Shown here in pieces: positions 3,451 through 43,282 of a stretch of DNA of 64,000 bases. Location: the NCBI RefSeq assembly GCF_056746865.1, contig NZ_CM163382.1. One strand, 5' to 3'. Numbering within the stretch: position 1 is the first letter of the stretch; every line of letters starts with the position of its first letter. Below the pieces are notes generated by a model. The model worked only from the letters and a program-made list of their open reading frames with translations, was not told the origin of the DNA and did not search any database. A program made the position numbers and the translations under genes.

Positions 3451-5889
3451 TTAAAAATCAGCCTGACTCGGGATCAGTTTTTGCCAGATAACTGAAACGT
3501 ATTTTGCCTGGTAACGGGCGTCATCAAGTGCATTATGGCGCTCACCTTCGAATGGAATAGCCGTTCTGGCATCGAAGTCTATGGCTTTCCCCAGCTCAAC
3601 GATTGTGCGTACATCTCGATCGTTGTAGTAACGCCACGGGCAGGGGATCCCCTGCCGTTCGTATGAACGGCGCAAAATCGTGTTGTCGAAGTTGGCTCCA
3701 TTTCCCCAGACCTGAACAAAAAATTCACCGGAGTTTTCGTCGATAAATTCCCGCAATTGTAACAGTGCATCATCTAACGGGATTTCATCGGTCATAATGG
3801 CAGATTGCGCTTCGCGTGATTGCTTAAGCCACCATTTAATGGTGTCCCGATCAATGACCCCGCCAGCAGTTTCCAGATCGATAGTCTTACTAAATTCCGG
3901 TCCCATATCTCCGGTTTGCGGATCGAAAAATATTGCACCTATTGAGATGATCGGGGCATCAGGATTTTTTCCCATGGTTTCAAGGTCGATCATTAGATGG
4001 TCACACGTCCTGCTGGTGGATGTGATAACGTGATGACCGTTCACCGTAATTAAGGGATCTGCCGTCTCGCCAGTTTCACTATCGCTGGCGTGATCCTGAG
4101 CGCTGCCAGCATTCTCCTTGTGTGGATGTTCAGCGCCTTCCATTTCCTTCGGATCATTTTCCTGAACTTCAACCTGATTCTCTTCATCGAATGTTTCCTG
4201 GTATGTTGCGTCGCCCATCACCGCGCCACAATCAGGGCAGTTGCCGCCGCCGGTCTGACCGCAGGCGGTGCAGATCTTTTCCGGTTCCTGTTGCACTACT
4301 GGTTCAGGTTGTTTCGTTTCTGGCTCGTTTTGTAACGCATTTGGGCTGTTTTGTTCCGCTTTCTGGTCGTTCTGTTCCGATTCTTGCTGGTTCTGGTTTA
4401 CAGAATCGCGGGTTTCAATCCCCTTTACCCATTTCGGATCATTCGGGTCGCTAATCCCTGCAACAAATTCTCCGCGAGAGGCAGCAAGCAACTTATCGGC
4501 GTCAGGCTGGCTGATATTGGCTGCCTGCATAATTTTGTTTACTTCGTCAGCGGTAACTTTTACCTGTGACTTGTCATCCAGCGGCTGCGGGTCCTGATGA
4601 TGTTCAACTGTATCCGCTGCCATTGTTTCAGCCGTTGCCTGTTCATCTGCCATTGCGCCAGATGGTTGCGGGTTATCTTCATCATTTTTTTCTTCTTCTG
4701 TTTTGCACTCAGCAGCCAGTCCGCCGTTAATTTCTTCCAGGATATCTTTTTCCGGTGTATGCCGGGCAGCCATGAGCGTTTCAGCTGTGGGATTCTCGTG
4801 ATCAGTTTCTGTCAGGTTGGCATTGATATACCCCTGAAGGCGCCCCGGGTAGTGATAAAACTCAGGGTGGGCGCTTCGGATAAGTGCAAAAATAGCTGCG
4901 CGGGAATAGTCCAGGATACCAGGGGTTGCGCGAAGTGCTGCGGACCATTCCCTGAACGGACTTTCTTTTTTCAGGACGATTTCTTTTGCGCGACGATAAA
5001 CGCTGCCCGGAATTTCATAAATATTAAAATCCATCGGAAGTGTGGCTGCTGCAATCTCCACATCCAGCGCATCGAAGGTGTGTACTAAATTCGGATTGCG
5101 ATCGGTTTTGTTCCCGCCACCGGCATTTGCACCGGAAGCCGTACGGGTGATACGCGAAACACGATTTCCTTTCATCCACTCTTTTGTCAGCAGACCCCGA
5201 TCAGTGTAATCAGCGTCCAGGTATGCCTCGAAAAAAGCAGTTATCAGTCCCAGGTCTGAATTACCGGGATTAGGGAAAACTTTGTCAGTGTCGCGTACCA
5301 GTTTGTGAAGGTCGCGAATCTCCAGCGGGTCGAGCAGCTTTGTTTTGTGAGAAATGGCCAGGGCAGTAACAGCCGGCAGTTCTTCCGCCCGTGCTATATG
5401 TAATGCCTGAAGTTCTTCCCGTGCAACGTGCGTTACTGGTTTTTCGCTGCTGTGTTGCGCAAGCCAGCGAATGGGCAGCTCCTGACCAGAAACCGGCAGG
5501 AGCATATTCTCCTCAATCTCCGTCATGTCTTCGCCGTTGACGTTGGTATTGTCAGTACTGGCTGGTTTCTCCTGCACGGAGGGAGAGGGCGCGATAAATA
5601 CCATTGTAATGCCATCTTCCCCGCCTTTTTCGTATCGGTTGCAGAATTCGGTATCAAACACGCCTTCAGGTGGAAGGTCATTCACAACGGGTAAATGGAC
5701 GCGAACGGGTTTTTTAAAGTCGTCTTCATCATAATCGTTGTCATCCATTGCGGTAATGCAGCGGGAGATGGCAACAGATAATTTTTTTGCTGTAGTCCAG
5801 TAAAAACCACCTTTAATTCCCAGACGTTTTCTGACTTTGTCATTTTTTGCTTCGCAATATAGCGCAAATTCTTCTTTATCAGTGCTCAT
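3451..5889 (-). CDS. Large prophage exonuclease-like protein (DEDDh-type 3'-5' exonuclease C-terminal domain, acidic linker, Cys4 zinc ribbon)
   Basis: 812 aa; C-terminal motifs [23 protein letters not shown] resemble DnaQ-like Exo I/II/III; CTACG...CPDCG zinc ribbon; position equivalent to recE/exo in lambdoid early-left operons. Confidence 0.6.
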
Positions 5890-5981
5890 TGATAAACCTC
5901 ATTACAGATTTAAGGGTGAACAAATCCCTGCCATTGCTGGCATTTTTAATCCGTTGGTATGGTGTTAATATGGCTGGAGGG

Positions 5982-6532: not shown

Positions 6533-6590
6533 TAAAAAGGGCGGCAGAGCAGTCACGGAGTAAAACTGATACCGCCAAACGTCACCAGAA
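6533..6590 (-). ncRNA. dicF: DicF small RNA (ftsZ-targeting sRNA) with intrinsic terminator
   Basis: Minus-strand sequence TTTCTGGTGACGTTTGGCGGTATCAGTTTTACTCCGTGACTGCTCTGCCGCCCTTTTT matches DicF as recalled; GC hairpin plus T-run; conserved position upstream of dicB. Confidence 0.75.
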
Positions 6591-8098: not shown

Positions 8099-8872
8099 TC
8101 AGTCTAAGTATTGATGTATTTGTGAAACTTTACCTTTAATGGTGTAACCACCATTCAGTTCGATGGGTTTGTAAAGCGGATTCAGTGACAACAAATAGAT
8201 GTTTGGTCCGTCAATCGCAACTTTTTTTAGTGTTACGTTTGGCGTTCCTTCCAATTGGATTAAGATTATTTTTCCCACCAGTTCTCTAATGTTACTTGAG
8301 CATGGTGTGATCAGCACGGTAGATCCGTCGGGGATGGTTGGGAGGCCGTTAGAGTTTGTCATCGCATCTCCCTCAACATGCAATAAAAAAGAGTTTTCAG
8401 CGGTTTTTGTCATGACATCAACCCAGTTATTAATACCAGGAATCTTGGTTACTGGACAACTCATATCCCAATAACCAGCCTGTTCCCACGTTAAAACGGG
8501 CAACCGGGCGATGTTGTCACTAATGTAAGGGTACTGATTCAGACGCAGATCATCGGTTTTATCGTGACAGTCCTTTCCATAAAGAATCCATTCAGGAGAT
8601 TTGGAAAGCAATTTTGACAGTAGATACAAATTCTCACCGTCAGGTTTTGAAGAGCCATTTTCCCATTTTGTTACGGATACACGAGATATGCCGATTGCTT
8701 TCGCAACCTGCTGTTGGGTTAATCCAACGTCTTTTCGACGATTCCGAATACGTTCGCTGATAGTGTTTTTCATGTAACCAATGTTACTACCAAGTGATGT
8801 TGCTATGGTTGACATTGTTATGTAACTATTGTTACCCTTCTGCTCGAAATAACAGGAGAGTTTTATGTTCAA
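8099..8872 (-). CDS. cI: CI-like phage repressor (XRE HTH plus S24 LexA-like peptidase domain)
   Basis: HTH region GLTQQQVAKAIGISRVSVTKWENG; C-terminal S24-like region; divergent from cro-like gene; likely true start at ATG 8815 (MSTIATSLG). Confidence 0.85.
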   Translation of the reverse strand: MNIKLSCYFEQKGNNSYITMSTIATSLGSNIGYMKNTISERIRNRRKDVGLTQQQVAKAIGISRVSVTKWENGSSKPDGENLYLLSKLLSKSPEWILYGKDCHDKTDDLRLNQYPYISDNIARLPVLTWEQAGYWDMSCPVTKIPGINNWVDVMTKTAENSFLLHVEGDAMTNSNGLPTIPDGSTVLITPCSSNIRELVGKIILIQLEGTPNVTLKKVAIDGPNIYLLSLNPLYKPIELNGGYTIKGKVSQIHQYLD

Positions 8873-9080
8873 AGATGATGTTCTGCGCTATTTCAAAAAA
8901 AAGCGACTAGTAGCTGAGGCTCTTGGAATTTCACATGTGGCTGTTGTGCGGTGGAAAGCAGTTATTCCCAAACTTCGCGCAATGGAACTGGATGAAATTA
9001 CTAACGGTGAATTGAAATACAACCCAGAACTTTACAAGAAGCAGGATAGCACCTCGAACGAAGGAAAGAATGATTCATGA
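8865..9080 (+). CDS. cro: Cro-like HTH regulator
   Basis: 71 aa, LVAEALGISHVAVVRWK HTH; strong RBS AGGAGAG; divergent from cI. Confidence 0.7.
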   Translation: MFKDDVLRYFKKKRLVAEALGISHVAVVRWKAVIPKLRAMELDEITNGELKYNPELYKKQDSTSNEGKNDS

Positions 9081-9502
9081 AAATCAAGCATGAACACATC
9101 CGCATGGCGATGAATGTCTGGGCGCATCCGGACGGCGAAAAAGTACCGGCTGCGAAAATTACCAAAGCGTATTTCGAGCTGGGAATGACGTTCCCGGAAC
9201 TGTATGACGACAGCCATCCGGAAGCCCTGGCCCGTAATACCCAGAAAATTTTCCGTTGGCTGGATAAAGACACCCCTGATGCTGTTGAAAAAATGCAGGC
9301 TCTGTTACCGGCGATCGAAAAGGCGATGCCGCCTTTGCTGGTGGCCCGTATGCGCAGCCACAGTTCTGAATATTACCGTGAGATCGTCGAACGGAGGGAT
9401 CGGCTGGTGAAGGATGTCGATGATTTTGTTGCGTCAGCGGTTGTTTTGTATGACCAGATGAATCGCGGCGGCCCGGCAGGGAATGCTGTGGTGATGCACT
9501 AA
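9077..9502 (+). CDS. YdaT-like protein (CII-position regulator/toxin family)
   Basis: 141 aa starting MKIKHEHI, as Rac YdaT; ATGA overlap with cro stop. Confidence 0.55.
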   Translation: MKIKHEHIRMAMNVWAHPDGEKVPAAKITKAYFELGMTFPELYDDSHPEALARNTQKIFRWLDKDTPDAVEKMQALLPAIEKAMPPLLVARMRSHSSEYYREIVERRDRLVKDVDDFVASAVVLYDQMNRGGPAGNAVVMH

Positions 9503-9509
9503 AAGCACG

Positions 9510-10487
9510 GTGTTCGGGGGTTTTATGAGCAGCAAGCTTCATGGTCTTGTCTGGGAAGGGTGCGCCTTCACCGGCATGATCTTATCCAGGGTGGCGGTTA
9601 TGGCCCGTCTTGCAGACTACAGCAATGACGAGGGCGTGTCATGGCCTGCCATTGAAACTATCCGGCGTCAGATCGGTGCAAGAAGTGAATCCACAGTGAA
9701 ATCGGCTATTGCAGAACTGGCGAAAGAGGGCTGGCTGACGAAGGAAGAGCGTAAGGTCGGTGGGCGTAATGTAAGCAATATCTATCGGCTTAATGTGGAA
9801 AAACTCGAAGCAGCTGCGGCGGCGGCGCGTGAGTCATATAAACCGAAAAGAAAAATTAGCCCGGCAAAAAATGACCCGTTAACAGTTGACCCGTCAAATA
9901 TTGACCCCTCAACGGTTGACCCGTCAAATTTTGATGGATCAACTGTTGATAAAAAACTGCCGATTAGGGGGGCGATGATTGACCCCGATCCGTCAGTATT
10001 AAAACCTGATCCGTCAGATAAAAGATCTTCTTGTCCGGACGCTTCGCAACCGGACCCGCAGACGGCTGAACAGGATTTTTTAACCCGACACCCTGACGCG
10101 GTTGTGTTCAGTGCGAAAAAACGCCAGTGGGGAAGTCAGGAAGATTTGGTGTGCGCACAGTGGATCTGGGGACGAATCGTGAGTCTTTACGAGCAGGCGG
10201 CCAGCGATGATGGCGAGATCACTAGACCGAAAGAACCCAACTGGACAGCATGGGCCAATGACGTTCGCACAATGCGGATGCTGGATGGCAGAACTCACAG
10301 ACAAATTTGTGAAATGTTTGGGCGTCTCCAGCGGGATTCGTTCTGGGTAAAAAACATCATGAGTCCGGCAAAACTCCGGGAAAAATGGGATGAACTGGTT
10401 ATCCGCCTGGGGCGTTCGCCTGCGCAGCGTTGCGTGAATCACATTTCTGAACCGGACACTGAAATACCGCCGGGATTCAGGGGGTGA
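9510..10487 (+). CDS. Replication initiation protein (lambda O functional analogue, YdaU-like)
   Basis: N-terminal winged-helix-like region; internal DNA iterons; immediately upstream of DnaC-like loader; start may be ATG 9525. Confidence 0.6.
   Translation: MFGGFMSSKLHGLVWEGCAFTGMILSRVAVMARLADYSNDEGVSWPAIETIRRQIGARSESTVKSAIAELAKEGWLTKEERKVGGRNVSNIYRLNVEKLEAAAAAARESYKPKRKISPAKNDPLTVDPSNIDPSTVDPSNFDGSTVDKKLPIRGAMIDPDPSVLKPDPSDKRSSCPDASQPDPQTAEQDFLTRHPDAVVFSAKKRQWGSQEDLVCAQWIWGRIVSLYEQAASDDGEITRPKEPNWTAWANDVRTMRMLDGRTHRQICEMFGRLQRDSFWVKNIMSPAKLREKWDELVIRLGRSPAQRCVNHISEPDTEIPPGFRG
9880..10020. repeat. Iteron cluster (candidate phage origin) inside the replication initiator gene
   Basis: Repeated TTGACCCGTCAAAT / TTGACCCCTCAACGG / TGACCCCGATCCGTCAG units, encoding DPSN/DPST peptide repeats. 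Confidence 0.5.
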
Positions 10488-10493
10488 CGTGTC

Positions 10494-11240
10494 ATGAAAA
10501 ACATTGCGGCAGTTGGGGTTCTTGAACGTATTCGCAGACTTGCACCACAGGGGTCGGTTCCACCGTACCGGACGGTGGAGGAGTGGCGGGAATGGCAACT
10601 TGCTGAAGGACGAAAACGCAGCGAGGAGATTAACCGCCAGAATCGCCAGTTGCGGGTGGAAAAAATCCTGAATCGTTCGGGCATCCAGCCTCTGCACAGC
10701 AAATGCTCGTTTGCAAATTATCAGGTGCAGAACGACGGGCAAAAATACGCGCTGAGCCAGGCCAAATCCATAGCTGACGAACTGATGACCGGGTGCACGA
10801 ATTTTGTGTTCAGCGGTAAAACCGGCACCGGGAAAAATCACCTTGCAGCGGCGATGGGCAACCGGCTGATGGTGAAGGGGCGCAGCGTGATTATCGTCAC
10901 CGTGTCTGACGTCATGAGCGTGTTGCATGACAGCTACGACAACGGCAAATCCGGGGAAAAATTTTTACAGGAGCTTTGCGGGGTTGATTTGCTGGTCCTG
11001 GATGAAATAGGCGTTCAGCGGGAGACGAAAAACGAGCAGGTGGTATTGCACCAGATAATTGATCGCCGGACAGCATCACTGTGCAGTGTCGGGATGTTAA
11101 CAAACCTGAATCATGCCGCAATGAGTACGCTTCTTGGTGAGAGGATTATGGACCGCATGACCATGAACGGTGGTCGATGGGTGACGTTTAACTGGGATAG
11201 CTGGCGTCCAAATGTCAGCAATATGAGGGTTGTGAAGTAA
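10494..11240 (+). CDS. DnaC-like helicase loader (IstB-like AAA+ ATPase)
   Basis: Walker A GKTGTGKNHLAAA and Walker B LLVLDEIG. Confidence 0.85.
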   Translation: MKNIAAVGVLERIRRLAPQGSVPPYRTVEEWREWQLAEGRKRSEEINRQNRQLRVEKILNRSGIQPLHSKCSFANYQVQNDGQKYALSQAKSIADELMTGCTNFVFSGKTGTGKNHLAAAMGNRLMVKGRSVIIVTVSDVMSVLHDSYDNGKSGEKFLQELCGVDLLVLDEIGVQRETKNEQVVLHQIIDRRTASLCSVGMLTNLNHAAMSTLLGERIMDRMTMNGGRWVTFNWDSWRPNVSNMRVVK

Positions 11241-11261
11241 TTTTGTCCGGAGGAAATTTTA

Positions 11262-12032
11262 ATGGAAACCGTATCTGACGCACTGAAAGCACTGAAAAAA
11301 GCCTCTTCACATGTGGTGGCAGCTCGCCTTGGAATCAGTCGTGAAGAGGCTGTCAACGAGCTGTGGGAACTCAAAAGAAATGGCGTCGTTGATAAAACTG
11401 GTCACACCTGGTTTCTGGCTGGCGAAGGTGAATCCCGGGTAACCGAAGAGCGGCCAGTAAAATCTGAAGCACAGGATATGCTGACCGGGGAGGTCGAACA
11501 AAAAGTTACCGCAGACATGATGATTGAGTTTATCGGTCAGGATGGGGCTAAAACGTGTGAGGAACTGGCGGGTAAGTTCGGTGTCAGTACTCGCAAGGTT
11601 GCTTCCACGCTGGCGGTGGTAACCGCAACGGGGCGGCTGGCACGCGTTAATCAGAACGGTAAATTTCGTTACTGCATGCCGGGCGATAATTTACCAGCAG
11701 AGCCGAAAGCCGCGCTGGTAACGGAAAGTGATGGTAAGGCCTTTCCTCAGCCAGCAGGTGCTGCGTTACCAGGCCGGGAAGCCGCAACACAGGAAGAAAT
11801 TAAAACAGAAACTGTGGCGGACATTGTGCAGTCGTTGCCATCGTTTACCGAAACGCAAGCAGATGAGCTGATTTTTCCGTCCCTGCGCAGGGCAAACCTG
11901 GCGCTGCGCAGGGCGAAAAGTGATGTTCAGAAGTGGGAGCGAGTCTGCGCCGCGCTGCGGGAGCTGAACAAGCACCGGGATATTGTTCGACAGATTACTG
12001 ATTCTTCCCGCCGTGTTGTATCGGAAAAGTGA
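11262..12032 (+). CDS. Hypothetical protein with two winged-helix-like repeats
   Basis: 256 aa; internal repeats AARLGISREEAVNELWELKRNGVV and LAGKFGVSTRKVASTLAVVTATGRLARV. Confidence 0.5.
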   Translation: METVSDALKALKKASSHVVAARLGISREEAVNELWELKRNGVVDKTGHTWFLAGEGESRVTEERPVKSEAQDMLTGEVEQKVTADMMIEFIGQDGAKTCEELAGKFGVSTRKVASTLAVVTATGRLARVNQNGKFRYCMPGDNLPAEPKAALVTESDGKAFPQPAGAALPGREAATQEEIKTETVADIVQSLPSFTETQADELIFPSLRRANLALRRAKSDVQKWERVCAALRELNKHRDIVRQITDSSRRVVSEK

Positions 12033-12047
12033 TTGCCGGAGGCGCTT

Positions 12048-12470
12048 ATGGCAAAAGTATTTACACAAGAAGAGCGGGAAAAAATTAAAGGGCAGGTTGT
12101 TGAACTTGTACGTCTGAGCGGTCGCGAGACGTTGCGGCAACTGGAAGCCAAGACAGGTGCGACAAGATATCTGATGAGTGTTCTCGCCAGAGAGCTGGTT
12201 GCCAGTGGCGATGTATACAACTCTGGTTACGGGTTATTCCCGTCTGAACAGGCGCGTAAGGACTGGCAAAACGCCCGCAAAAAACTCTCAAGGGCAAATC
12301 TGAAGAAACCATCTGTGGTTGATCCTGACCTTATCTGGCCATTACCAGACGGCGAAATACGCCGCTACGACAGGCGTCAAAACATAATCTGTAGCGAGTG
12401 CCGGAAGAGCGAAGCTATGCAGCGTGTACTGGCTTTCTATCAGGGTAATTTTCAGAAGGTGCTGTTGTGA
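12048..12470 (+). CDS. Hypothetical protein, putative wHTH
   Basis: ATG at 12048 with GGAGG RBS (track ORF starts at an upstream TTG, 12033). Confidence 0.5.
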   Translation: MAKVFTQEEREKIKGQVVELVRLSGRETLRQLEAKTGATRYLMSVLARELVASGDVYNSGYGLFPSEQARKDWQNARKKLSRANLKKPSVVDPDLIWPLPDGEIRRYDRRQNIICSECRKSEAMQRVLAFYQGNFQKVLL

Positions 12471-12575
12471 GCCAAATTAACAATCGGAACTTCGTGAAGA
12501 GAAAGCATAATCCAAATCTGAATAATTAAGTTCAGCACTGTAAATAAAATTTAATCCTTAACTGGAGGTATATCT

Positions 12576-12686
12576 ATGTCAAATACACAGAAAATTATTA
12601 ACACTGAAAAATATAACGAGTGGGTGAAAAATTCTCTGAGCAGATTTTTAAAATTACTGGCGACGAGAATGTGGCAAAAAATGAAT
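12576..12686 (+). CDS. Small basic protein (36 aa), hypothetical
   Basis: Manual translation MSNTQKIINTEKYNEWVKNSLSRFLKLLATRMWQKMN; GGAGG RBS 8 nt upstream; below track cutoff. Confidence 0.3.
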
Positions 12687-12819
12687 TAGAACCGTGGACA
12701 CCTGAAGGAAACGCACCAAATTATTGCTGGTGGGAGGTTGATCCGGTTGATGCTGCAAATGAAGCCATGAGTTACCACAACGATTAATGTCGGGAGGCCG
12801 CCCGAAAGGGCGGTAAGAA

Positions 12820-13039: not shown

Positions 13040-13243
13040 ATGGCAACTTTGACAAAAAAAGAACGGGCATGGTTGAACGAATTACAGGAAGTTCTTGATC
13101 GCTGTCCATCACCGAAAAAATTGGCTTTTACACCATTGGCGATAAAAGCATTTACCTGTATGACCTACGCCGCATGGATGAAATCATGGAGGCTCTTGAT
13201 AATCGTTCGTCGATGGATTGGTGTGTTGCTGTTCATGATATGA
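13040..13243 (+). CDS. Hypothetical small protein (67 aa)
   Basis: ATG overlapping the previous stop (TGATATG); internal Met of track ORF 12950..13243. Confidence 0.35.
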   Translation: MATLTKKERAWLNELQEVLDRCPSPKKLAFTPLAIKAFTCMTYAAWMKSWRLLIIVRRWIGVLLFMI

Positions 13244-13433
13244 ATGCAGGGTTTGATGAAAAGATTTTGTTCCCCTCATCAGTTGAAAGCACTGCGGGTT
13301 AAGGAGTAACACATGACCACTATTACCAAAGAACGTATTGAATTGTTCATTAAATTTTCAGGAGGCGGTACTGTGAGTGAAATTAGCTATCAGGCTTCAA
13401 TTACCGCTGGCATTCGCATCAAAGGAGAGGAGC

Positions 13434-14066: not shown

Positions 14067-14235
14067 TTTTGGTTCAACTAAATACAACGTCGGTTTTGAA
14101 GAATGGCATGAACTGTTAATGGACTATGCAGAGTTACGTGGTGGCAGTGCTGCTGATGCTGAAGCATGGCGTGATGATTATGAAGCAGGAAAAACTCCGG
14201 TCGAAGCATATTGTGATGAGTGGGGCGATGAATGA
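14059..14235 (+). CDS. Small acidic protein (58 aa), hypothetical
   Basis: Manual translation MADFGSTKYNVGFEEWHELLMDYAELRGG...; overlaps previous stop. Confidence 0.3.
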   Translation: MADFGSTKYNVGFEEWHELLMDYAELRGGSAADAEAWRDDYEAGKTPVEAYCDEWGDE

Positions 14236-14717
14236 GCGAGGTTAATTATCAGGAAGGGCATGAAACGGCGGGGCAAGCAAAAACAGTGGCATGGCGATAT
14301 CGCTACGTGAAAAAAAGGCGTTACGGACTTTCAGGGGAAGTAGTGGTCTGGTGACTGGAAATATGTACCGAAAAAAGAGGATTGTAACGACAGGCCGAAC
14401 TATGAAATTCAGGCCTTATTCACTGCCCCGCCAGTCCCGGTTACATCAGAAGAACTGGTTAAAGCTGTGCACTTTTATGAACAACTAAAATGCGAAAATC
14501 CACCAGCATCCGGAAACCTGATTACAGATTCCCAGATAAGGCAATGAGCTACCTGGCGCAGAACGGGCTGATAAGTATGGGGAATGTTTTACGATGAATA
14601 TTTAGACTAAAGAGTTTGTAACGCTATGTAAGTGATTTTTTCTGGTTTAGATATTTATATGTCCGGCTAAATTGAGGTGTGTTTAAATGTTATTGCACAT
14701 TGATTGTAGGGGGAATA

Positions 14718-14897: not shown

Positions 14898-15155
14898 ATA
14901 CAGCGAACGCCATTGGTTTAGTTGGATATTTACTGTGCCGGACAAAAACGGTTTGCGGGGAAATCTTAGTTAAGTAGAATGACTGCGGGTGCTTGAGGCT
15001 ATCTGTCTCAGGCATGAACACCAAAAGGCAGATAGAGAAAAGCCCCAGTTAACATTACGCGTCCTGCAAGACGCTTAACATTAATCTGAGGCCATATCTA
15101 TGCGACACATAGAGATTAGCCTCTTACGGACCGAAAGGTCAAGGAGAAGCAGGCT

Positions 15156-15311
15156 ATGAAGCAGCAAAAGGCGATGTTAATCGCCCTGATCGTCATCTGT
15201 TTAACCGTCATAGTGACGGCACTGGTAACGAGGAAAGACCTCTGCGAGGTACGAATCCGAACCGGCCAGACGGAGGTCGCTGTCTTCACAGCTTACGAAC
15301 CTGAGGAGTAA
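15156..15311 (+). CDS. hok: Hok/Gef-family type I toxin
   Basis: 51 aa MKQQKAMLIALIVICLTVIVTALVTRKDLCEVRIRTGQTEVAVFTAYEPEE, Hok-like TM helix plus CE(I/V)R motif; AAGGAG RBS; short overlapping upstream leader ORF (mok-like). Confidence 0.85.
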   Translation: MKQQKAMLIALIVICLTVIVTALVTRKDLCEVRIRTGQTEVAVFTAYEPEE

Positions 15312-16814: not shown

Positions 16815-17174
16815 ATGCTCATAGATTTGGTTTTACCTTACCCGCCGACGGTGAACACTTACTGGCGACGCCGTGGCAGCACATATTTTATTTCGGAGGA
16901 GGGAAAGCGTTATCGCCGGGCTGTGGCGCTTATTGTTCGCCAGCAGCGGCTGAAATTAAGCCTGTCCGGAAGGCTGGCGATAAAGGTGATTGCAGAGCCA
17001 CCGGATAAGCGTCGTCGCGACCTGGACAATATCCTGAAAGCACCGCTGGATGCGCTGACGCATGCGGGAGTGTTAATGGACGATGAGCAGTTTGATGAAA
17101 TCAATATTGTACGTGGTCAGCCAGTATCTGGTGGACGGCTGGGTGTGAAGATTTACAAAATTGAGAGTGAGTGA
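16815..17174 (+). CDS. rusA: Holliday junction resolvase RusA
   Basis: 119 aa; LPYPPTVNTYWRRRG and RRRDLDN motifs match RusA. Confidence 0.9.
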   Translation: MLIDLVLPYPPTVNTYWRRRGSTYFISEEGKRYRRAVALIVRQQRLKLSLSGRLAIKVIAEPPDKRRRDLDNILKAPLDALTHAGVLMDDEQFDEINIVRGQPVSGGRLGVKIYKIESE

Positions 17175-17737
17175 GCGTAAATATGATATATCCGGAAATT
17201 ACAGGCAAAAGCGGCGAGCATTTACGTCTAAAAACGCTGGAAGCAGTCTGGATCCAGGGGAAATTACGGATGTGGGGGCGGTGGCCGTATATTGGCGGCG
17301 GTAAGACGGGAAATATGTTCAACCAATTACTGACCTCTAAAAAGCTGACAAAAACGGCAATTAACGAGGCGCTCCGGAGGATGAAAAAAGCTGGTCTGGA
17401 CAAACCTGAACTTGAGGCTTTTTTGCGGGATATGATCAACGGCAATCAAAAAAGCTGGCTGGCACATTGTACCGATTCAGAGGCGTTAATAATCGACAGG
17501 GTTATTGGTGAAGTCCTGGCAGGCTATCCCGGGCTGCTCAATGTCCTGAGTCAGCGTTATGTGGGGCGGGGGATGACTAAGCGCAAAATGGCTGAACTGC
17601 TGAATGATGCACACCCGGAATGGAGTTTAAGAACCTGTGAAAGACGCATTGAGCATTGGCTAAAGGTGGCAGAATTTATTTTGTACAAACCAATGGTTAT
17701 GGCTTTTGGTATAGAGAAAAAAGTTATTGCTTTTTGA
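17171..17737 (+). CDS. Q: Late antitermination protein Q (lambdoid Q-like)
   Basis: 188 aa directly after rusA and followed by a strong intrinsic terminator (tR'-like). Confidence 0.65.
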   Translation: MSVNMIYPEITGKSGEHLRLKTLEAVWIQGKLRMWGRWPYIGGGKTGNMFNQLLTSKKLTKTAINEALRRMKKAGLDKPELEAFLRDMINGNQKSWLAHCTDSEALIIDRVIGEVLAGYPGLLNVLSQRYVGRGMTKRKMAELLNDAHPEWSLRTCERRIEHWLKVAEFILYKPMVMAFGIEKKVIAF

Positions 17738-17814: not shown

Positions 17815-17839
17815 AGCCCGCTTTTTGCGGGTTTTTTTA
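17815..17839 (+). terminator. tR'-like intrinsic terminator downstream of Q
   Basis: GCCCGC-ttttt-GCGGG hairpin followed by TTTTTTT. Confidence 0.65.
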
Positions 17840-17961: not shown

Positions 17962-18159
17962 ATGCTAAAACAGCAGGATATGACCGAAACCGCCAGAGTG
18001 GTGTTTAATGAGTTAAGCGTCACCGAACCGGCGACAGTCGGGGAGATTGCACAGAATACTTACCTTTCACGCGAACGCTGCCAGTTAATACTGACCCAGC
18101 TTGTTATGGCGGGTCTGGCAGACTATCAGTTTGGTTGTTACAGACACCTTCAGTCCTGA
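17962..18159 (+). CDS. Hypothetical small wHTH-like protein
   Basis: Internal Met MLKQQDMTETARV...; motif TVGEIAQNTYLSRERCQLILTQL; followed by hairpin plus T-run at 18147..18173. Confidence 0.35.
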   Translation: MLKQQDMTETARVVFNELSVTEPATVGEIAQNTYLSRERCQLILTQLVMAGLADYQFGCYRHLQS

Positions 18160-18295
18160 AGGCTTTTTTATTTGTGGTAAATGGGCGGCTGGTGGGTGTG
18201 GTGGTAGACTGGCCCCCTGAATCTCCAGACAACCAATATCACTTATTTAAGTGATAGTCTTAATACTAGTTTTTAGACTAGTCATTGGAGAACAG

Positions 18296-18661
18296 ATGAT
18301 TGATGTCTTAGGGCCGGAGAAACGCAGACGGCGTACCACACAGGAAAAGATCGCAATTGTTCAGCAGAGCTTTGAACCGGGGATGACGGTCTCCCTCGTT
18401 GCCCGGCAACATGGTGTAGCAGCCAGCCAGTTATTTCTCTGGCGTAAGCAATACCAGGAAGGAAGTCTTACTGCTGTCGCCGCCGGAGAACAGGTTGTTC
18501 CTGCCTCTGAACTTGCTGCCGCCATGAAGCAGATTAAAGAACTCCAGCGCCTGCTCGGCAAGAAAACGATGGAAAATGAACTCCTCAAAGAAGCCGTTGA
18601 ATATGGACGGGCAAAAAAGTGGATAGCGCACGCGCCCTTATTGCCCGGGGATGGGGAGTAA
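18296..18661 (+). CDS. insC: IS2 transposase OrfA (InsC)
   Basis: [40 protein letters not shown]... matches InsC. Confidence 0.9.
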
Positions 18662-19524
18662 GCTTAGTCAGCCGTTGTCTCCGGGTGTCGCGTGCGCAGT
18701 TGCACGTCATTCTCAGACGAACCGATGACTGGATGGATGGCCGCCGCAGTCGTCACACTGATGATACGGATGTGCTTCTCCGTATACACCATGTTATCGG
18801 AGAGCTGCCCACGTATGGTTATCGTCGGGTATGGGCGCTGCTTCGCAGACAGGCAGAACTTGATGGTATGCCTGCGATCAATGCCAAACGTGTTTACCGG
18901 ATCATGCGCCAGAATGCGCTGTTGCTTGAGCGAAAACCTGCTGTACCGCCATCGAAACGGGCACATACAGGCAGAGTGGCAGTGAAAGAAAGTAATCAGC
19001 GATGGTGCTCTGACGGGTTCGAGTTCCGCTGTGATAACGGAGAAAAACTGCGAGTCACGTTCGCGCAGGACTGCTGTGACCGTGAGGCACTGCACTGGGC
19101 GGTCACTACGGGCGGCTTCAACAGTGAAACAGTACAGGACGTCATGCTGGGAGCGGTGGAACGCCGCTTCGGCAACGAGCTTCCGGCGTCTCCAGTAGAG
19201 TGGCTGACGGATAATGGTTCATGCTACCGGGCTAATGAAACACGGCAGTTTGCCCGGATGTTGGGGCTTGAACCGAAGAGCACGGCGGTGCGGAGTCCGG
19301 AGAGTAACGGCATAGCAGAGAGCTTCGTGAAAACGATAAAGCGTGACTACATCAGTGTCATGCCCAAACCAGACGGGTTAACGGCAGCAAAGAACCTTGC
19401 AGAGGCGTTCGAGCATTATAACGAATGGCATCCGCATAGTGCACTGGGTTATCGCTCGCCACGGGAATATCTACGGCAGCAAGCCAGTAATGGGTTAAGT
19501 GATAACAGGTGTCTGGAAATATAG
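18619..19524 (+). CDS. insD: IS2 transposase OrfB (InsD), DDE domain
   Basis: 301-aa ORF overlapping orfA in -1 frame, typical IS3-family frameshift arrangement. Confidence 0.9.
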
Positions 19525-19879
19525 GGGCAAATCCAGGTGGTTGTTGCTTTCCCGTTGCTGAAAAAGAAAACGCCAGACTGTTAGCCGGGTATCAGTTATC
19601 TGGAGAAATTTTTAAATACCTCACAATTCAGGCGGTTGACTGTTGTCTGGTTTGCGGGGAGTTTGTTAAAAGAAACTGGCATGGTGAATCCCCCTGTGCG
19701 GAGGGGCAATCAGCAACTGGTGTTTTGTCACCGACCCTTATCCTTTCTGTGCGGGTTCAGGTGCTGATACTGAACTCACCGGGAGGCACCCGGCATCATG
19801 CAATGGCACATAGCGCCACTCTCCAGCCCCTCTCCGGAGGGGCTGTTTATATTGATTTTGTCAGATGTGAGTAAACTCC

Positions 19880-42698: not shown

Positions 42699-43282
42699 TG
42701 GCATTCAGAATGAGTGAACAACCACGGACCATAAAAATTTATAATCTGTTGTCCGGAACTAATGAATTTATTGGTGAAGGTGATGCATATATTCCGCCTC
42801 ATACAGGTCTGCCAGCAAACAGTACCGATATTGCACCGCCAGATATTCCGGCTGGCTTCGTGGCTGTTTTCAATAGTGATGAGTCATCGTGGCATCTCGT
42901 TGAAGACCATCGGGGTAAAACGGTTTATGACGTAGCGTCAGGGGACGAGTTATTTATTTCTGAACTCGGTCCGTTACCGGAAAATGTTACCTGGTTATCG
43001 CCGGAAGGGGAGTTTCAGAAGTGGAACGGCACAGCCTGGGTGAAGGATACGGAAGCAGAAAAACTGTTCCGGATCCGGGAGGCGGAAGAAACAAAAAACA
43101 ACCTGATGCAGGTAGCCAGTGAGCATATTGCGCCGCTTCAGGATGCTGCAGATCTGGAAATTGCAACGGAGGAAGAAACCTCATTGCTGGAAGCCTGGAA
43201 AAAGTATCGGGTGTTGCTGAACCGTGTTGATACATCAACTGCACCTGATATTGAGTGGCCTACGAACCCTGTCAGGGAGTAA
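42698..43282 (+). CDS. tfa: Tail fibre assembly protein Tfa
   Basis: 194 aa, [18 protein letters not shown]... as lambda Tfa. Confidence 0.9.

What the first reader, a model, noticed from the sequence alone, without database searches (positions are those of the whole stretch)
11262..12470. Family of small winged-helix-like proteins recurring in the prophage
The 256-aa protein contains two internal repeats resembling a winged-helix recognition unit. Similar modules occur in the adjacent 140-aa protein (ETLRQLEAKTGATRYLMSVLARELVASG) and in the small ORF after tR' (17962..18159, TVGEIAQNTYLSRERCQLILTQL). Their function is unknown; repeated DNA-binding-like modules around the replication and late-control regions could be regulators or antirepressors.
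Basis: inference. Interest (0 to 1): 0.35.

Follow-up and report, generated by a model that had tools for sequence, protein, structure and literature searches.

The report
Known winged-helix phage accessory proteins
The flagged genes are three already catalogued accessory proteins of an E. coli lambdoid prophage (DUF1627, a lambda Ren homologue, and a small regulator-like protein); at least two of them, and probably the third, contain the very common winged-helix fold, so this is an ordinary, well-populated part of phage genomes whose exact function is still untested.

Summary
The window is an E. coli chromosome carrying a Rac/Qin-like lambdoid prophage. The 256-aa protein (11262-12032) is a DUF1627 (PF07789) member. 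AlphaFold2 gives two confident winged-helix (WH) domains (aa 1-55 and 82-140), disordered linkers and a long basic C-terminal helix. The two WH units are related at profile level (HHalign E 2e-6, z=14) although BLASTP sees nothing. The 140-aa neighbour (12048-12470) is DUF977/YdaW/LygF, a homologue of lambda Ren: an N-terminal WH plus the conserved C-terminal ECRxSxAMxRVLxxY motif. The 65-aa ORF (17962-18159) is the protein NCBI names 'TrmB family transcriptional regulator'. Its WH fold is only weakly supported here. In related phages a DNA methyltransferase follows it; that gene is missing here, and the homology stops where IS2 begins.

So WH modules are present, but the three proteins do not form one family:
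- DUF1627 WH2 resembles the Ren WH remotely (z=7).
- The 65-aa protein resembles DUF1627 WH1 only weakly.
- The 65-aa protein shows no similarity to DUF977.

No evidence points to antirepressors. The best reading is delayed-early accessory proteins in the 'ren slot' after the replication genes, plus a remnant of a late-operon regulator/methylase cassette. All three are identical or near-identical to annotated database proteins, so interest is low.

The parts
11262..12032 (+). DUF1627 gene (256 aa; RefSeq WP_000451003). GGAGGA at 11249-11254 lies 7 nt before the ATG.
   Evidence: PF07789 324 bits against a 28.1-bit cut-off, matching aa 91-245. phrog_630 E 1.5e-132. PGAP annotation.
11262..11426 (+). 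WH1 (aa 1-55). Acidic winged helix, not covered by the Pfam DUF1627 model.
   Evidence: AF2 gives H4-11, b13-15, H16-23, H27-39, b43-46, b49-52 at pLDDT 96-98. phrog_16668 E 1.6e-25 and HTH_Crp_2 E 9e-5. Family mean net charge is -1.9 and W50 is nearly invariant.
11427..11504 (+). Variable, disordered linker 1 (aa 56-81).
   Evidence: pLDDT 46-71. Length and sequence vary across the alignment.
11505..11681 (+). WH2 (aa 82-140). Basic winged helix and the candidate DNA-binding unit.
   Evidence: AF2 gives H84-94, H99-106, H110-123, b127-131, b134-138 at pLDDT 96-97. Position 111 is K/R in 100% of sequences and position 128 in 98%; family mean net charge is +4. HHalign to WH1 gives E 1.7e-6 and to the lambda Ren WH P 7e-5.
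11682..11813 (+). Variable Pro/Ala/Glu-rich linker 2 (aa 141-184).
   Evidence: pLDDT 54-73. Poorly aligned across the family.
11814..12026 (+). Conserved C-terminal region (aa 185-255): an IPsF...P motif followed by a long basic amphipathic helix at aa 208-255. It is the likely oligomerisation or partner-binding element.
   Evidence: pLDDT 90-96 over aa 210-250. Conserved R216, R217, K219, R233, K237 with heptad-spaced hydrophobic residues; mean net charge +6.5. phrog_29124 and phrog_1888 matches.
12048..12470 (+). DUF977 / YdaW / LygF gene (140 aa; WP_064580229), a lambda Ren homologue. GGAGG at 12038-12042. It lies in the same frame as DUF1627, separated by TGA 12030-12032.
   Evidence: PF06163 105.7 bits against a 22.1-bit cut-off. 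phrog_142 'Ren-like exclusion protein' E 1.6e-47. Collinear alignment with lambda Ren.
12066..12242 (+). WH domain of DUF977 (aa 7-65).
   Evidence: AF2 on the chimeric construct gives pLDDT 75-90 with H-b-H-H-b-b topology. Foldseek hits are GntR, MarR, ArsR and IclR. Published HHpred/COMPASS assignment in PMC2686095.
12381..12440 (+). Ren-type C-terminal motif NIICSECRKSEAMQRVLAFY (aa 112-131).
   Evidence: BLASTP to lambda Ren aa 73-92: 12/20 identical, E 9e-7.
17816..17838 (+). tR'-like intrinsic terminator after the Q-like gene (GCCCGC-TTTTT-GCGGGT followed by a T run).
   Evidence: Read directly from the sequence. The consensus scan did not list it.
17962..18159 (+). 65-aa ORF (WP_000917765; phrog_331), a probable single WH/HTH protein. 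Many homologues are named 'TrmB family transcriptional regulator' by NCBI.
   Evidence: phrog_331 E 5.5e-37. Source names. Pfam TrmB 18 bits, below cut-off. AF2 gives three helices at low pLDDT. A terminator-like hairpin at 18147-18162 overlaps its stop codon.
18205..19535 (+). IS2 (IS3 family) insertion that ends the homology to phiP27 and sits where the DNA methyltransferase usually follows the 65-aa ORF. Outer limits are approximate.
   Evidence: Homology to phiP27 stops at 18199 and no methyltransferase is found in the window. Terminal inverted repeats at 18214-18245 and 19496-19527. PGAP annotation 'IS3 family transposase'.

Best explanation
Shown.
The finding covers three distinct, already catalogued accessory proteins of a lambdoid E. 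coli prophage. Two contain winged-helix (WH) domains on structural evidence; for the third the fold is only weakly supported.

(1) DUF1627 is a 'beads-on-a-string' protein:
- an acidic WH1;
- a basic WH2 that arose with WH1 by internal duplication (the family holds 1 to 3 WH copies);
- a basic amphipathic C-terminal helix.
In related phages it sits directly after the last replication gene, which is a DnaC-like loader, a lambda-P-like loader or an O-like initiator.

(2) DUF977/YdaW/LygF is the homologue of lambda Ren: a WH domain plus the conserved C-terminal ECRxSxAMxRVLxxY helix. It occupies the ren position.

(3) The 65-aa ORF after tR' is a small, probably WH-type protein. In relatives it forms a two-gene cassette with an N6/N4 DNA methyltransferase. 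In this window the methyltransferase gene is absent, and the homology stops where IS2 begins.

Inferred mechanism.
- DUF1627 and DUF977 are co-transcribed from pR with the replication genes as delayed-early, non-essential accessory proteins.
- DUF1627 oligomerises through its C-terminal helix. It contacts DNA through WH2 (R111, R128 and the basic wing) and uses the acidic WH1 for protein contacts.
- DUF977 acts like Ren, modulating or protecting the replication phase against host or prophage exclusion systems of the Rex or retron-toxin kind.
- The 65-aa protein controls, or assists, the adjacent methyltransferase in intact phages.
For: Identity of the locus: 100% identical to E. coli CFSAN061770, with PGAP annotation.

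Family assignments: PF07789, PF06163, phrog_630, phrog_142, phrog_331.

Structures:
- AF2 of DUF1627 gives two WH domains at pLDDT 96-98 and a C-terminal helix at 90-96.
- Foldseek hits are WH and tandem-WH proteins.
- The DUF977 N-terminus is a WH at pLDDT 75-90.

Internal duplication:
- HHalign E 1.7e-6, z=14.
- Architectures among 150 cluster representatives: WH1-WH2-C 52, WH1-C 15, WH2-C 9, WH1-WH2-WH2-C 2, and three WH2 copies 1.

Ren homology: BLASTP E 9e-7 on the C-terminal motif; collinear alignment. WH2 against the Ren WH gives P 7e-5, z=7, while controls from the same prophage give P 0.018-0.9.

Charge and conservation pattern.

Gene position:
- 56 of 79 IMG/VR loci carrying DUF977 have DUF1627 19-20 nt upstream. 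In 22 of the other 23 an O-like initiator is directly upstream, and in one a lambda-P-like loader.
- Upstream of DUF1627 lies a DnaC-like gene in 39 loci, a lambda-P-like gene in 12 and an O-like gene in 1.
- Distant homologues lie after DnaC-like, after P, or after RecE-like genes.
- No promoter-like or terminator-like site lies on the + strand between 11000 and 12470.

Literature:
- DUF977 assigned to WH by HHpred/COMPASS (PMC2686095).
- Rac ydaW is a blocker of the retron-Sen2 toxin RcaT (bioRxiv 2020.06.22.160242).
- Ren shows two-hybrid interaction with Rex proteins and is 'likely involved in DNA replication' (bioRxiv 2021.04.19.439022).
- ren is dispensable (PMC10695390).

65-aa cassette:
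- 68 of 76 IMG/VR loci have the N6_N4_Mtase homologue within 600 nt downstream. Three different Q types occur upstream.
- The same arrangement occurs in phiP27 and in mEp460, whose homologue is 52% identical.
Against: - No experiment addresses DUF1627, so DNA binding by WH2 and oligomerisation by the C-terminal helix rest only on charge, conservation and a monomer model.
- Some DUF1627 homologues follow a RecE-like exonuclease rather than replication genes, so the link to replication is positional and not universal.
- The WH fold of the 65-aa protein is not confidently predicted (pLDDT 43-66, no wing), and its Pfam TrmB score is below the cut-off.
- The DUF977 model came from a chimeric construct with a shallow alignment (at least 86% identity), and its C-terminal half is of low confidence.
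- The IMG/VR loci used for synteny counts are close relatives of each other, so the counts are not independent events.
- The Ren mechanism itself is unknown, so 'acts like Ren' transfers a phenotype, not a mechanism.
Confidence: 0.6

Rival explanations
1. One reading: the modules form one family of small sequence-specific DNA-binding regulators or antirepressors that control phage transcription around the replication and late regions.
For: - All three proteins contain WH-type or probable WH-type modules.
- Weak in-register profile similarities link most of them.
- YdaW is listed among predicted E. coli transcription factors (PMC9308461).
- NCBI names the 65-aa protein a TrmB family regulator.
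Against: - They are three different Pfam/PHROG families.
- BLASTP among them is not significant.
- DUF977 N-terminus against the 65-aa protein scores at the null level (z=-0.1).
- The C-terminal parts are unrelated.
- No antirepressor family matched in Pfam, PHROGs or NCBIfam.
- WH1 is acidic.
- lambda Ren has no known transcriptional role.
Confidence: 0.12
2. The WH domains of DUF1627 and DUF977 are purely protein-interaction modules, as in ScpB, ESCRT-II or DDRGK1. They bind replication proteins or host defence proteins, and DNA binding plays no part.
For: - Top structural matches include the protein-binding tandem-WH proteins ScpB, ESCRT-II and DDRGK1/UFL1.
- WH1 is acidic.
- Ren gives two-hybrid signals with Rex proteins.
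- ydaW blocks a retron toxin.
Against: - WH2 has an invariant basic residue at the start of the recognition helix and a basic wing, and the C-terminal helix is strongly basic. This pattern is typical of nucleic-acid binders.
- The two WH domains are joined by a disordered linker rather than packed as in ScpB-type (kite) proteins.
Confidence: 0.2
3. The resemblance is chance: the segments are generic helical sequence with no WH fold and no relationship.
For: Raw pairwise BLASTP finds nothing. The WH1/WH2 alignment is only 11% identical.
Against: - AF2 gives pLDDT 96-98 for two WH domains, with Foldseek rmsd 0.8-2 A to solved WH domains.
- HHalign z=14 for WH1 against WH2.
- Several independent HTH/WH profile hits fall in the same register.
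Confidence: 0.03

Closest known systems
Bacteriophage lambda Ren (96 aa; gene after P in the pR operon)
   Same: - The 140-aa protein shares the ren position, after the replication genes.
- Both have an N-terminal WH with a TGAT turn.
- Both carry the C-terminal ECRxSxAMxRVLxxY motif (12/20 identical, E 9e-7).
- PHROGs places both in phrog_142.
- DUF1627 WH2 also resembles the Ren WH remotely.
   Different: - DUF977 has an insertion of about 40 aa between the WH and the C-terminal motif.
- Here it is preceded by the extra DUF1627 gene.
- The Ren phenotype (escape from Rex exclusion) has not been tested for DUF977.
Rac prophage YdaW / 'LygF' (Pfam DUF977, PF06163)
   Same: Same Pfam family (105.7 bits). 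Same Rac-type order Cro, YdaT, O-like, DnaC-like, then the gene. The WH assignment is published.
   Different: According to the literature read here, YdaW length differs between MG1655 and O55:H7. The window copy is a full-length 140-aa protein.
Pfam DUF1627 (PF07789) / phrog_630
   Same: The 256-aa protein is a full member (324 bits; phrog_630 E 1.5e-132). It is identical to RefSeq WP_000451003.
   Different: The Pfam model covers only aa 91-245 (WH2 plus the C-terminal region). WH1 (aa 1-55) lies outside it and corresponds to the separate phrog_16668.
Tandem winged-helix proteins (SelB C-terminus, ScpB/kite proteins, ESCRT-II subunits, DDRGK1-UFL1) and minimal WH domains (Zalpha, FeoC)
   Same: Fold level only. 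Two WH domains in one chain; single domains superpose at rmsd 0.8-2 A.
   Different: - In DUF1627 the WH domains are separated by a disordered linker of about 25 aa rather than packed together.
- There is no sequence relationship.
- By my reading of the family columns, using the Zalpha residue numbering from memory, the Z-DNA contact residues of Zalpha (Asn173/Tyr177 in helix 3, the Pro-Pro-x-Trp wing) have no conserved equivalents.
TrmB / MarR-type small WH regulators, and controller (C) proteins of restriction-modification systems
   Same: - The best Pfam hits of the 65-aa protein are TrmB, MarR_2, DprA_WH and HTH_24, all in one register.
- NCBI names it a TrmB family regulator.
- Like a C protein, it is a small HTH-type ORF directly upstream of a DNA methyltransferase.
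   Different: - All Pfam scores are below the curated cut-offs.
- It lacks the TrmB C-terminal sensor domain.
- C proteins are Xre-type HTH, not WH (established knowledge).
- No restriction enzyme gene appears in the annotated flanks of the two phages examined.
- In this window the methyltransferase is absent.

Membership tests
Pfam DUF1627 (PF07789) | Score above the curated gathering threshold over the full model | tested here: met
   324.3 bits against 28.1; model positions 1-155 of 155 match aa 91-245.
Pfam DUF977 (PF06163) / YdaW / LygF | Score above the gathering threshold over the full model | tested here: met
   105.7 bits against 22.1; model positions 1-134 of 134. Annotated DUF977/LygF in RefSeq and phage records.
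lambda Ren family (phrog_142) | Sequence homology to lambda Ren, including the C-terminal motif | tested here: met
   phrog_142 E 1.6e-47. BLASTP to lambda Ren E 9e-7 over the C-terminal motif. Collinear alignment at 33% identity.
lambda Ren family (phrog_142) | Gene located downstream of the replication genes in the rightward early operon | tested here: met
   The order is Cro, YdaT, O-like, DnaC-like, DUF1627, DUF977. In IMG/VR loci DUF977 follows DUF1627, an O-like gene or a P-like gene.
lambda Ren family (phrog_142) | Confers escape from Rex exclusion (the ren phenotype) | not testable with these tools
   Needs plating of ren-/DUF977-complemented phage on rex+ lysogens.
Winged helix-turn-helix fold | H1-(b1)-H2-H3-b2-b3 topology predicted with confidence and matching solved WH structures: DUF1627 WH1 and WH2 | tested here: met
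   pLDDT 96-98. Foldseek to Zalpha, FeoC, MarR and ArsR at rmsd 0.8-2 A.
Winged helix-turn-helix fold | Same topology: DUF977 N-terminus | tested here: met
   pLDDT 75-90 with H7-24, H29-36, H40-53, b56-58, b63-65, from a chimeric construct with a shallow alignment. Foldseek hits are GntR, MarR, ArsR and IclR. Published HHpred/COMPASS result.
Winged helix-turn-helix fold | Same topology: 65-aa ORF | tested here: inconclusive
   Three helices at aa 4-18, 26-33 and 37-52, no wing predicted, pLDDT 43-66. HHalign to WH1 gives z=6.2.
TrmB family (PF01978) | Score above the Pfam gathering threshold | tested here: not met
   18.0 bits against 25.6, E 0.0027. No NCBIfam model reaches its cut-off. The name comes from source annotations only.
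   WH1-WH2 z=14. WH2-Ren WH z=7. WH1-65aa z=6.2. WH2-65aa z=3.8. WH1/WH2-DUF977N z=2.5-3.1. DUF977N-65aa z=-0.1. BLASTP shows nothing in any pair.
Zalpha (Z-DNA-binding WH) | Conserved Asn/Tyr in helix 3 and a Pro-Pro-x-Trp wing | tested here: not met
   Read from the family columns. Only the wing aromatic residue (W50; Y/W137) is conserved. The helix-3 equivalents are E36 in WH1 and M119 in WH2, and there is no Pro-Pro. The Zalpha residue numbering is from memory.
Known anti-phage defence proteins (PADLOC) | Significant match to a defence-system model | tested here: not met
   Only weak matches covering WH segments (Csa3, CARF, SWIM_XIII; E about 1e-3), and none for DUF977 or Ren.

The most novel reading that the evidence does not exclude
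DUF1627 and Ren/DUF977 belong to one diverged superfamily of 'ren-slot' proteins: one to three WH beads plus a short conserved C-terminal helix. The two act together as an anti-exclusion module. They would shield the phage replication complex from abortive-infection systems (Rex-like systems, retron toxins), with the acidic WH1 acting as a decoy or adaptor. Separately, the 65-aa protein could be a new WH-type controller of a phage orphan methyltransferase.
Probability: 0.15. Interest if true: 0.45.

Novelty: already known. Interest (0 to 1): 0.15.

Why it matters
As it stands, little. The genes are identical or near-identical to annotated RefSeq proteins. The region matches 4598 of 5426 complete E. 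coli genomes. The families and the WH nature of DUF977 are already on record.

Three modest points are added here:
- A domain map for DUF1627: acidic WH1, basic WH2, basic C-terminal helix, and a variable number of WH copies.
- A remote link between DUF1627 WH2 and the lambda Ren WH.
- The 65-aa ORF normally travels with a DNA methyltransferase. That gene is missing here, and the homology ends where IS2 begins.

If the ren-slot proteins prove to be counter-defence factors, these very common prophage genes would become relevant to phage-host arms-race studies and to Stx-phage biology.

Tried and rejected
1. Pairwise BLASTP of the modules: nothing significant, so profile methods and structure prediction were needed.
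2. Programmed TGA read-through or fusion of DUF1627 and DUF977. The two ORFs are in frame across a single TGA, and two ENA singleton clusters (P0002, P0004) are fusions. However, the spacing in related loci is either 19 or 20 nt, so the frame relationship is not conserved. Rejected as a designed feature.
3. Shared C-terminal domain between DUF1627 and DUF977 (both have a D.LI.P...RR stretch): HHalign scores at the null level, z=0.7. Rejected.
4. Zalpha-like Z-DNA binding, suggested by the 2l54, 4wcg and 1qbj hits: the contact residues are not conserved. Rejected.
5. Equivalence of the 65-aa ORF with lambda orf-64, which holds the same position after Q: no similarity.
6. Genes downstream of distant DUF1627 homologues as hidden Ren/DUF977 relatives: none is related.
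7. PADLOC defence models: only weak matches to WH segments.
8. Sequence-only PDB searches with single sequences and small profiles: all E > 0.07, though the top hits are WH domains in register.
9. Attempts to obtain diverse DUF977 and 65-aa homologues: the search for homologous proteins and the search for related loci return only the closest 80-120. Their profiles and AF2 alignments therefore stayed shallow.
10. One literature search on Ren wording returned only irrelevant papers, and Thomason & Court 2022 (PMC9529316) is not held.
Full report
**Locus.** The stretch 11000-12700 is 100% identical to the chromosome of E. coli CFSAN061770. It matches 4598 of 5426 complete E. coli genomes, 1080 of them over at least 80% of its length. 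PGAP annotation of that genome, together with my ORF and Pfam scans, gives a Rac/Qin-type lambdoid prophage. The gene order is:
- a LexA-family repressor on the minus strand;
- Cro, 8865-9080;
- YdaT-like, 9077-9502;
- an O-like initiator (HTH_36), 9510-10487;
- a DnaC-like loader, 10494-11240;
- DUF1627, 11262-12032;
- DUF977, 12048-12470;
- a run of small nin-like ORFs including hokD/sok;
- DUF968, RusA and a Q-like DUF1133 protein, the last at 17171-17737;
- a tR'-like terminator, 17816-17838;
- the 65-aa ORF, 17962-18159;
- IS2.

Both DUF1627 and DUF977 have good Shine-Dalgarno sequences. No promoter-like or terminator-like site separates them from the replication genes. They are therefore most simply part of the rightward early operon; this last step is an inference.

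**The 256-aa protein.** It is a full member of Pfam DUF1627 (324 bits) and of phrog_630. A search of 1.84 billion cluster representatives found only 153 relatives. A 49-sequence alignment of these gave an AlphaFold2 model with three ordered parts:
- a winged-helix (WH) domain at aa 1-55, pLDDT 96-98;
- a second WH domain at aa 82-140, pLDDT 96-98;
- a long helix at aa 208-255, pLDDT 90-96.

The parts are joined by low-confidence linkers of variable sequence. Foldseek against the PDB returns minimal WH domains at rmsd 0.8-2 A (Zalpha, FeoC, MarR, ArsR) and tandem-WH proteins (SelB, ScpB, ESCRT-II, DDRGK1-UFL1). BFVD returns many uncharacterised phage tandem-WH proteins.

The two WH units cannot be detected as repeats by BLASTP. 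Their family profiles, however, align in register over 46-47 columns with HHalign probability 90% and E 1.7e-6, which is z=14 against 100 column-shuffled nulls. The copy number of the unit varies in the family. Among the cluster representatives the architectures are WH1-WH2-C in 52, WH1-C in 15, WH2-C in 9, WH1-WH2-WH2-C in 2, and three WH2 units in 1. The internal-repeat observation is therefore real and reflects domain duplication.

Column statistics give a charge and conservation pattern:
- WH1 is acidic (family mean net charge -1.9).
- WH2 is basic (+4). Position 111, at the start of the recognition helix, is K/R in 100% of sequences, and position 128 in the wing in 98%.
- The C-terminal helix is very basic (+6.5) and has heptad-spaced hydrophobic residues.

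From this I infer, but have not shown, that WH2 contacts nucleic acid and that the helix mediates oligomerisation or partner binding.

**The 140-aa protein.** It is DUF977 (105.7 bits), known as YdaW or LygF, and a member of phrog_142 'Ren-like exclusion protein' (E 1.6e-47). I fetched lambda ren. The C-terminal motif matches at 12/20 identities, E 9e-7. The two proteins align collinearly, WH then C-terminal motif, with an insertion of about 40 aa in DUF977.

The structure came from a chimeric AF2 job (DUF977, a Gly-Ser linker, then the 65-aa protein), run this way because only one prediction job remained and with alignments of low diversity. It gives a WH topology for aa 7-65 at pLDDT 75-90. 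Foldseek hits to it are GntR, MarR, ArsR and IclR. This agrees with the published HHpred/COMPASS assignment of DUF977 to the WH fold (PMC2686095).

Literature read here says the following:
- ren is dispensable (PMC10695390).
- Ren is 'likely involved in DNA replication' and gives two-hybrid signals with Rex proteins (bioRxiv 2021.04.19.439022).
- Rac ydaW scored as a blocker of the retron-Sen2 toxin RcaT (bioRxiv 2020.06.22.160242).

**Is there one family?** BLASTP among the three proteins is not significant. At profile level the picture is mixed:
- The shallow DUF977 N-terminal profile matches WH1 and WH2 only marginally (z 2.5-3.1; 1-3 of 100 shuffles reach the score).
- The WH2 profile matches the lambda Ren WH at P 7e-5, z=7.0, 0/200 shuffles. 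Eight control proteins from the same prophage and locus give P 0.018-0.9.
- phrog_142 matches the WH2 fragment at E 6e-4.
- The C-terminal regions of DUF1627 and DUF977 are unrelated.
- The 65-aa profile matches WH1 at z=6.2 and WH2 at z=3.8, and does not match DUF977 or Ren.

Each module also hits generic bacterial WH/HTH families in the same register: HTH_Crp_2, PafC, FeoC, MntR, ArsR and TrmB. My reading is a genuine remote link between the DUF1627 WH units and the Ren-type WH, and only fold-level resemblance for the 65-aa protein.

**Context.** In 79 IMG/VR loci carrying close DUF977 relatives, DUF1627 lies 19-20 nt upstream in 56. Its identity to the window copy ranges from 46 to 100% while DUF977 stays at 91% or more, which marks a mosaic junction. 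In 22 of the other 23 loci an O-like initiator is directly upstream, and in one a lambda-P-like loader.

Upstream of DUF1627 lies a DnaC-like loader in 39 loci, a lambda-P-like loader in 12 (Pfam-confirmed) and an O-like gene in 1. Distant homologues (23-30% identity) follow a DnaC-like gene, a lambda P gene or, in two cases, a RecE-like exonuclease. DUF1627 is thus an optional insert between the replication module and the ren homologue.

**The 65-aa ORF.** It belongs to phrog_331. NCBI names many homologues 'TrmB family transcriptional regulator', although the Pfam TrmB score is below the cut-off. Its AF2 confidence is low: three helices, no wing.

In phiP27 and mEp460 (52% identical) it lies about 150 nt upstream of an N6_N4 DNA methyltransferase. 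The same holds in 68 of 76 IMG/VR loci, downstream of three different Q types. These loci are close relatives of each other, so the counts are not independent.

In the window, homology to phiP27 ends at 18199, where IS2 begins (inverted repeats at 18214-18245 and 19496-19527). No methyltransferase is present. The ORF here is therefore the orphaned half of a cassette.

**Verdict.** The WH modules are real, and the internal duplication in DUF1627 is well supported. The 'single recurring family' and 'antirepressor' readings are not supported. All three proteins belong to catalogued families and are identical or nearly identical to annotated database entries. The finding is ordinary.

The classification (three known families, plus the DUF1627 internal duplication) is secure; I put it at about 0.9. 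The mechanistic proposals are inferences, at about 0.3. These proposals are a DNA-binding, oligomeric DUF1627; a Ren-like role for DUF977 in protecting replication or countering exclusion; and a methyltransferase-regulator role for the 65-aa protein.

Noticed in passing
window 12030-12050: DUF1627 and DUF977 are in the same reading frame, separated by a single TGA. Two ENA singleton protein clusters (P0002, 403 aa; P0004, 372 aa) are DUF1627-DUF977 fusions. Spacing in related loci is 19 or 20 nt, so the in-frame arrangement is not conserved.
   Followed up: yes
window 18205-19535: An IS2 (IS3 family) copy begins where homology to phage phiP27 stops (18199). It sits where the N6_N4 DNA methyltransferase usually follows the 65-aa ORF, and no methyltransferase remnant was found anywhere in the window.
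   Followed up: partly
window 9851-9949: About five to six tandem copies of a 15-nt unit (TGACCCnTCAAnAnT-like) lie inside the O-like initiator gene. They encode the repeated peptide DPSNIDPSTVDPSNF and are probably the origin iterons of this prophage.
   Followed up: no
window 6539-6590 (-), 14987-15158 (+), 19650-19854 (+), 43041-43239 (+): Rfam gathering-level hits: DicF sRNA; sok antitoxin RNA next to hokD (15156-15311); STnc100 just after IS2; and IS009.
   Followed up: no
protein clusters P0327, P0351, P0388, P0367: Some DUF1627 relatives carry three WH units (WH1-WH2-WH2-C, or three WH2 units), and 15 clusters carry only one (WH1-C). The WH unit therefore behaves as a module of variable copy number.
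   Followed up: yes
IMG/VR loci L009-L088: DUF977 stays at 91% identity or more to the window copy, while the DUF1627 gene 19-20 nt upstream ranges from 46 to 100% identity. This marks a sharp mosaic recombination boundary at the intergenic GGAGG region.
   Followed up: partly
phage record PP818812.1 (Actinobacillus phage vB_Apl-pPE4), 10050-10806: A record attributed to an Actinobacillus pleuropneumoniae phage carries a DUF1627 gene that is 84% identical in DNA and 78% in protein to this E. coli prophage gene. That is an odd host assignment for such close similarity.
   Followed up: no
window 12576-12787, 13040-13302, 14232-14597 (from locus L001 annotation): PGAP marks three small ORFs just downstream of DUF977 as frameshifted or internally stopped pseudogenes. 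An IS4 copy lies in the leftward early region (about 4568-5914). The prophage is decaying.
   Followed up: no
L003 6001-6768 and L005 3550-4278: Distant DUF1627 homologues (about 28% identity) overlap the end of a RecE-like Exonuc_VIII gene in non-lambdoid early operons. One of these operons has a Phage_GPA initiator. The family is therefore not strictly tied to O/P-type replication modules.
   Followed up: partly
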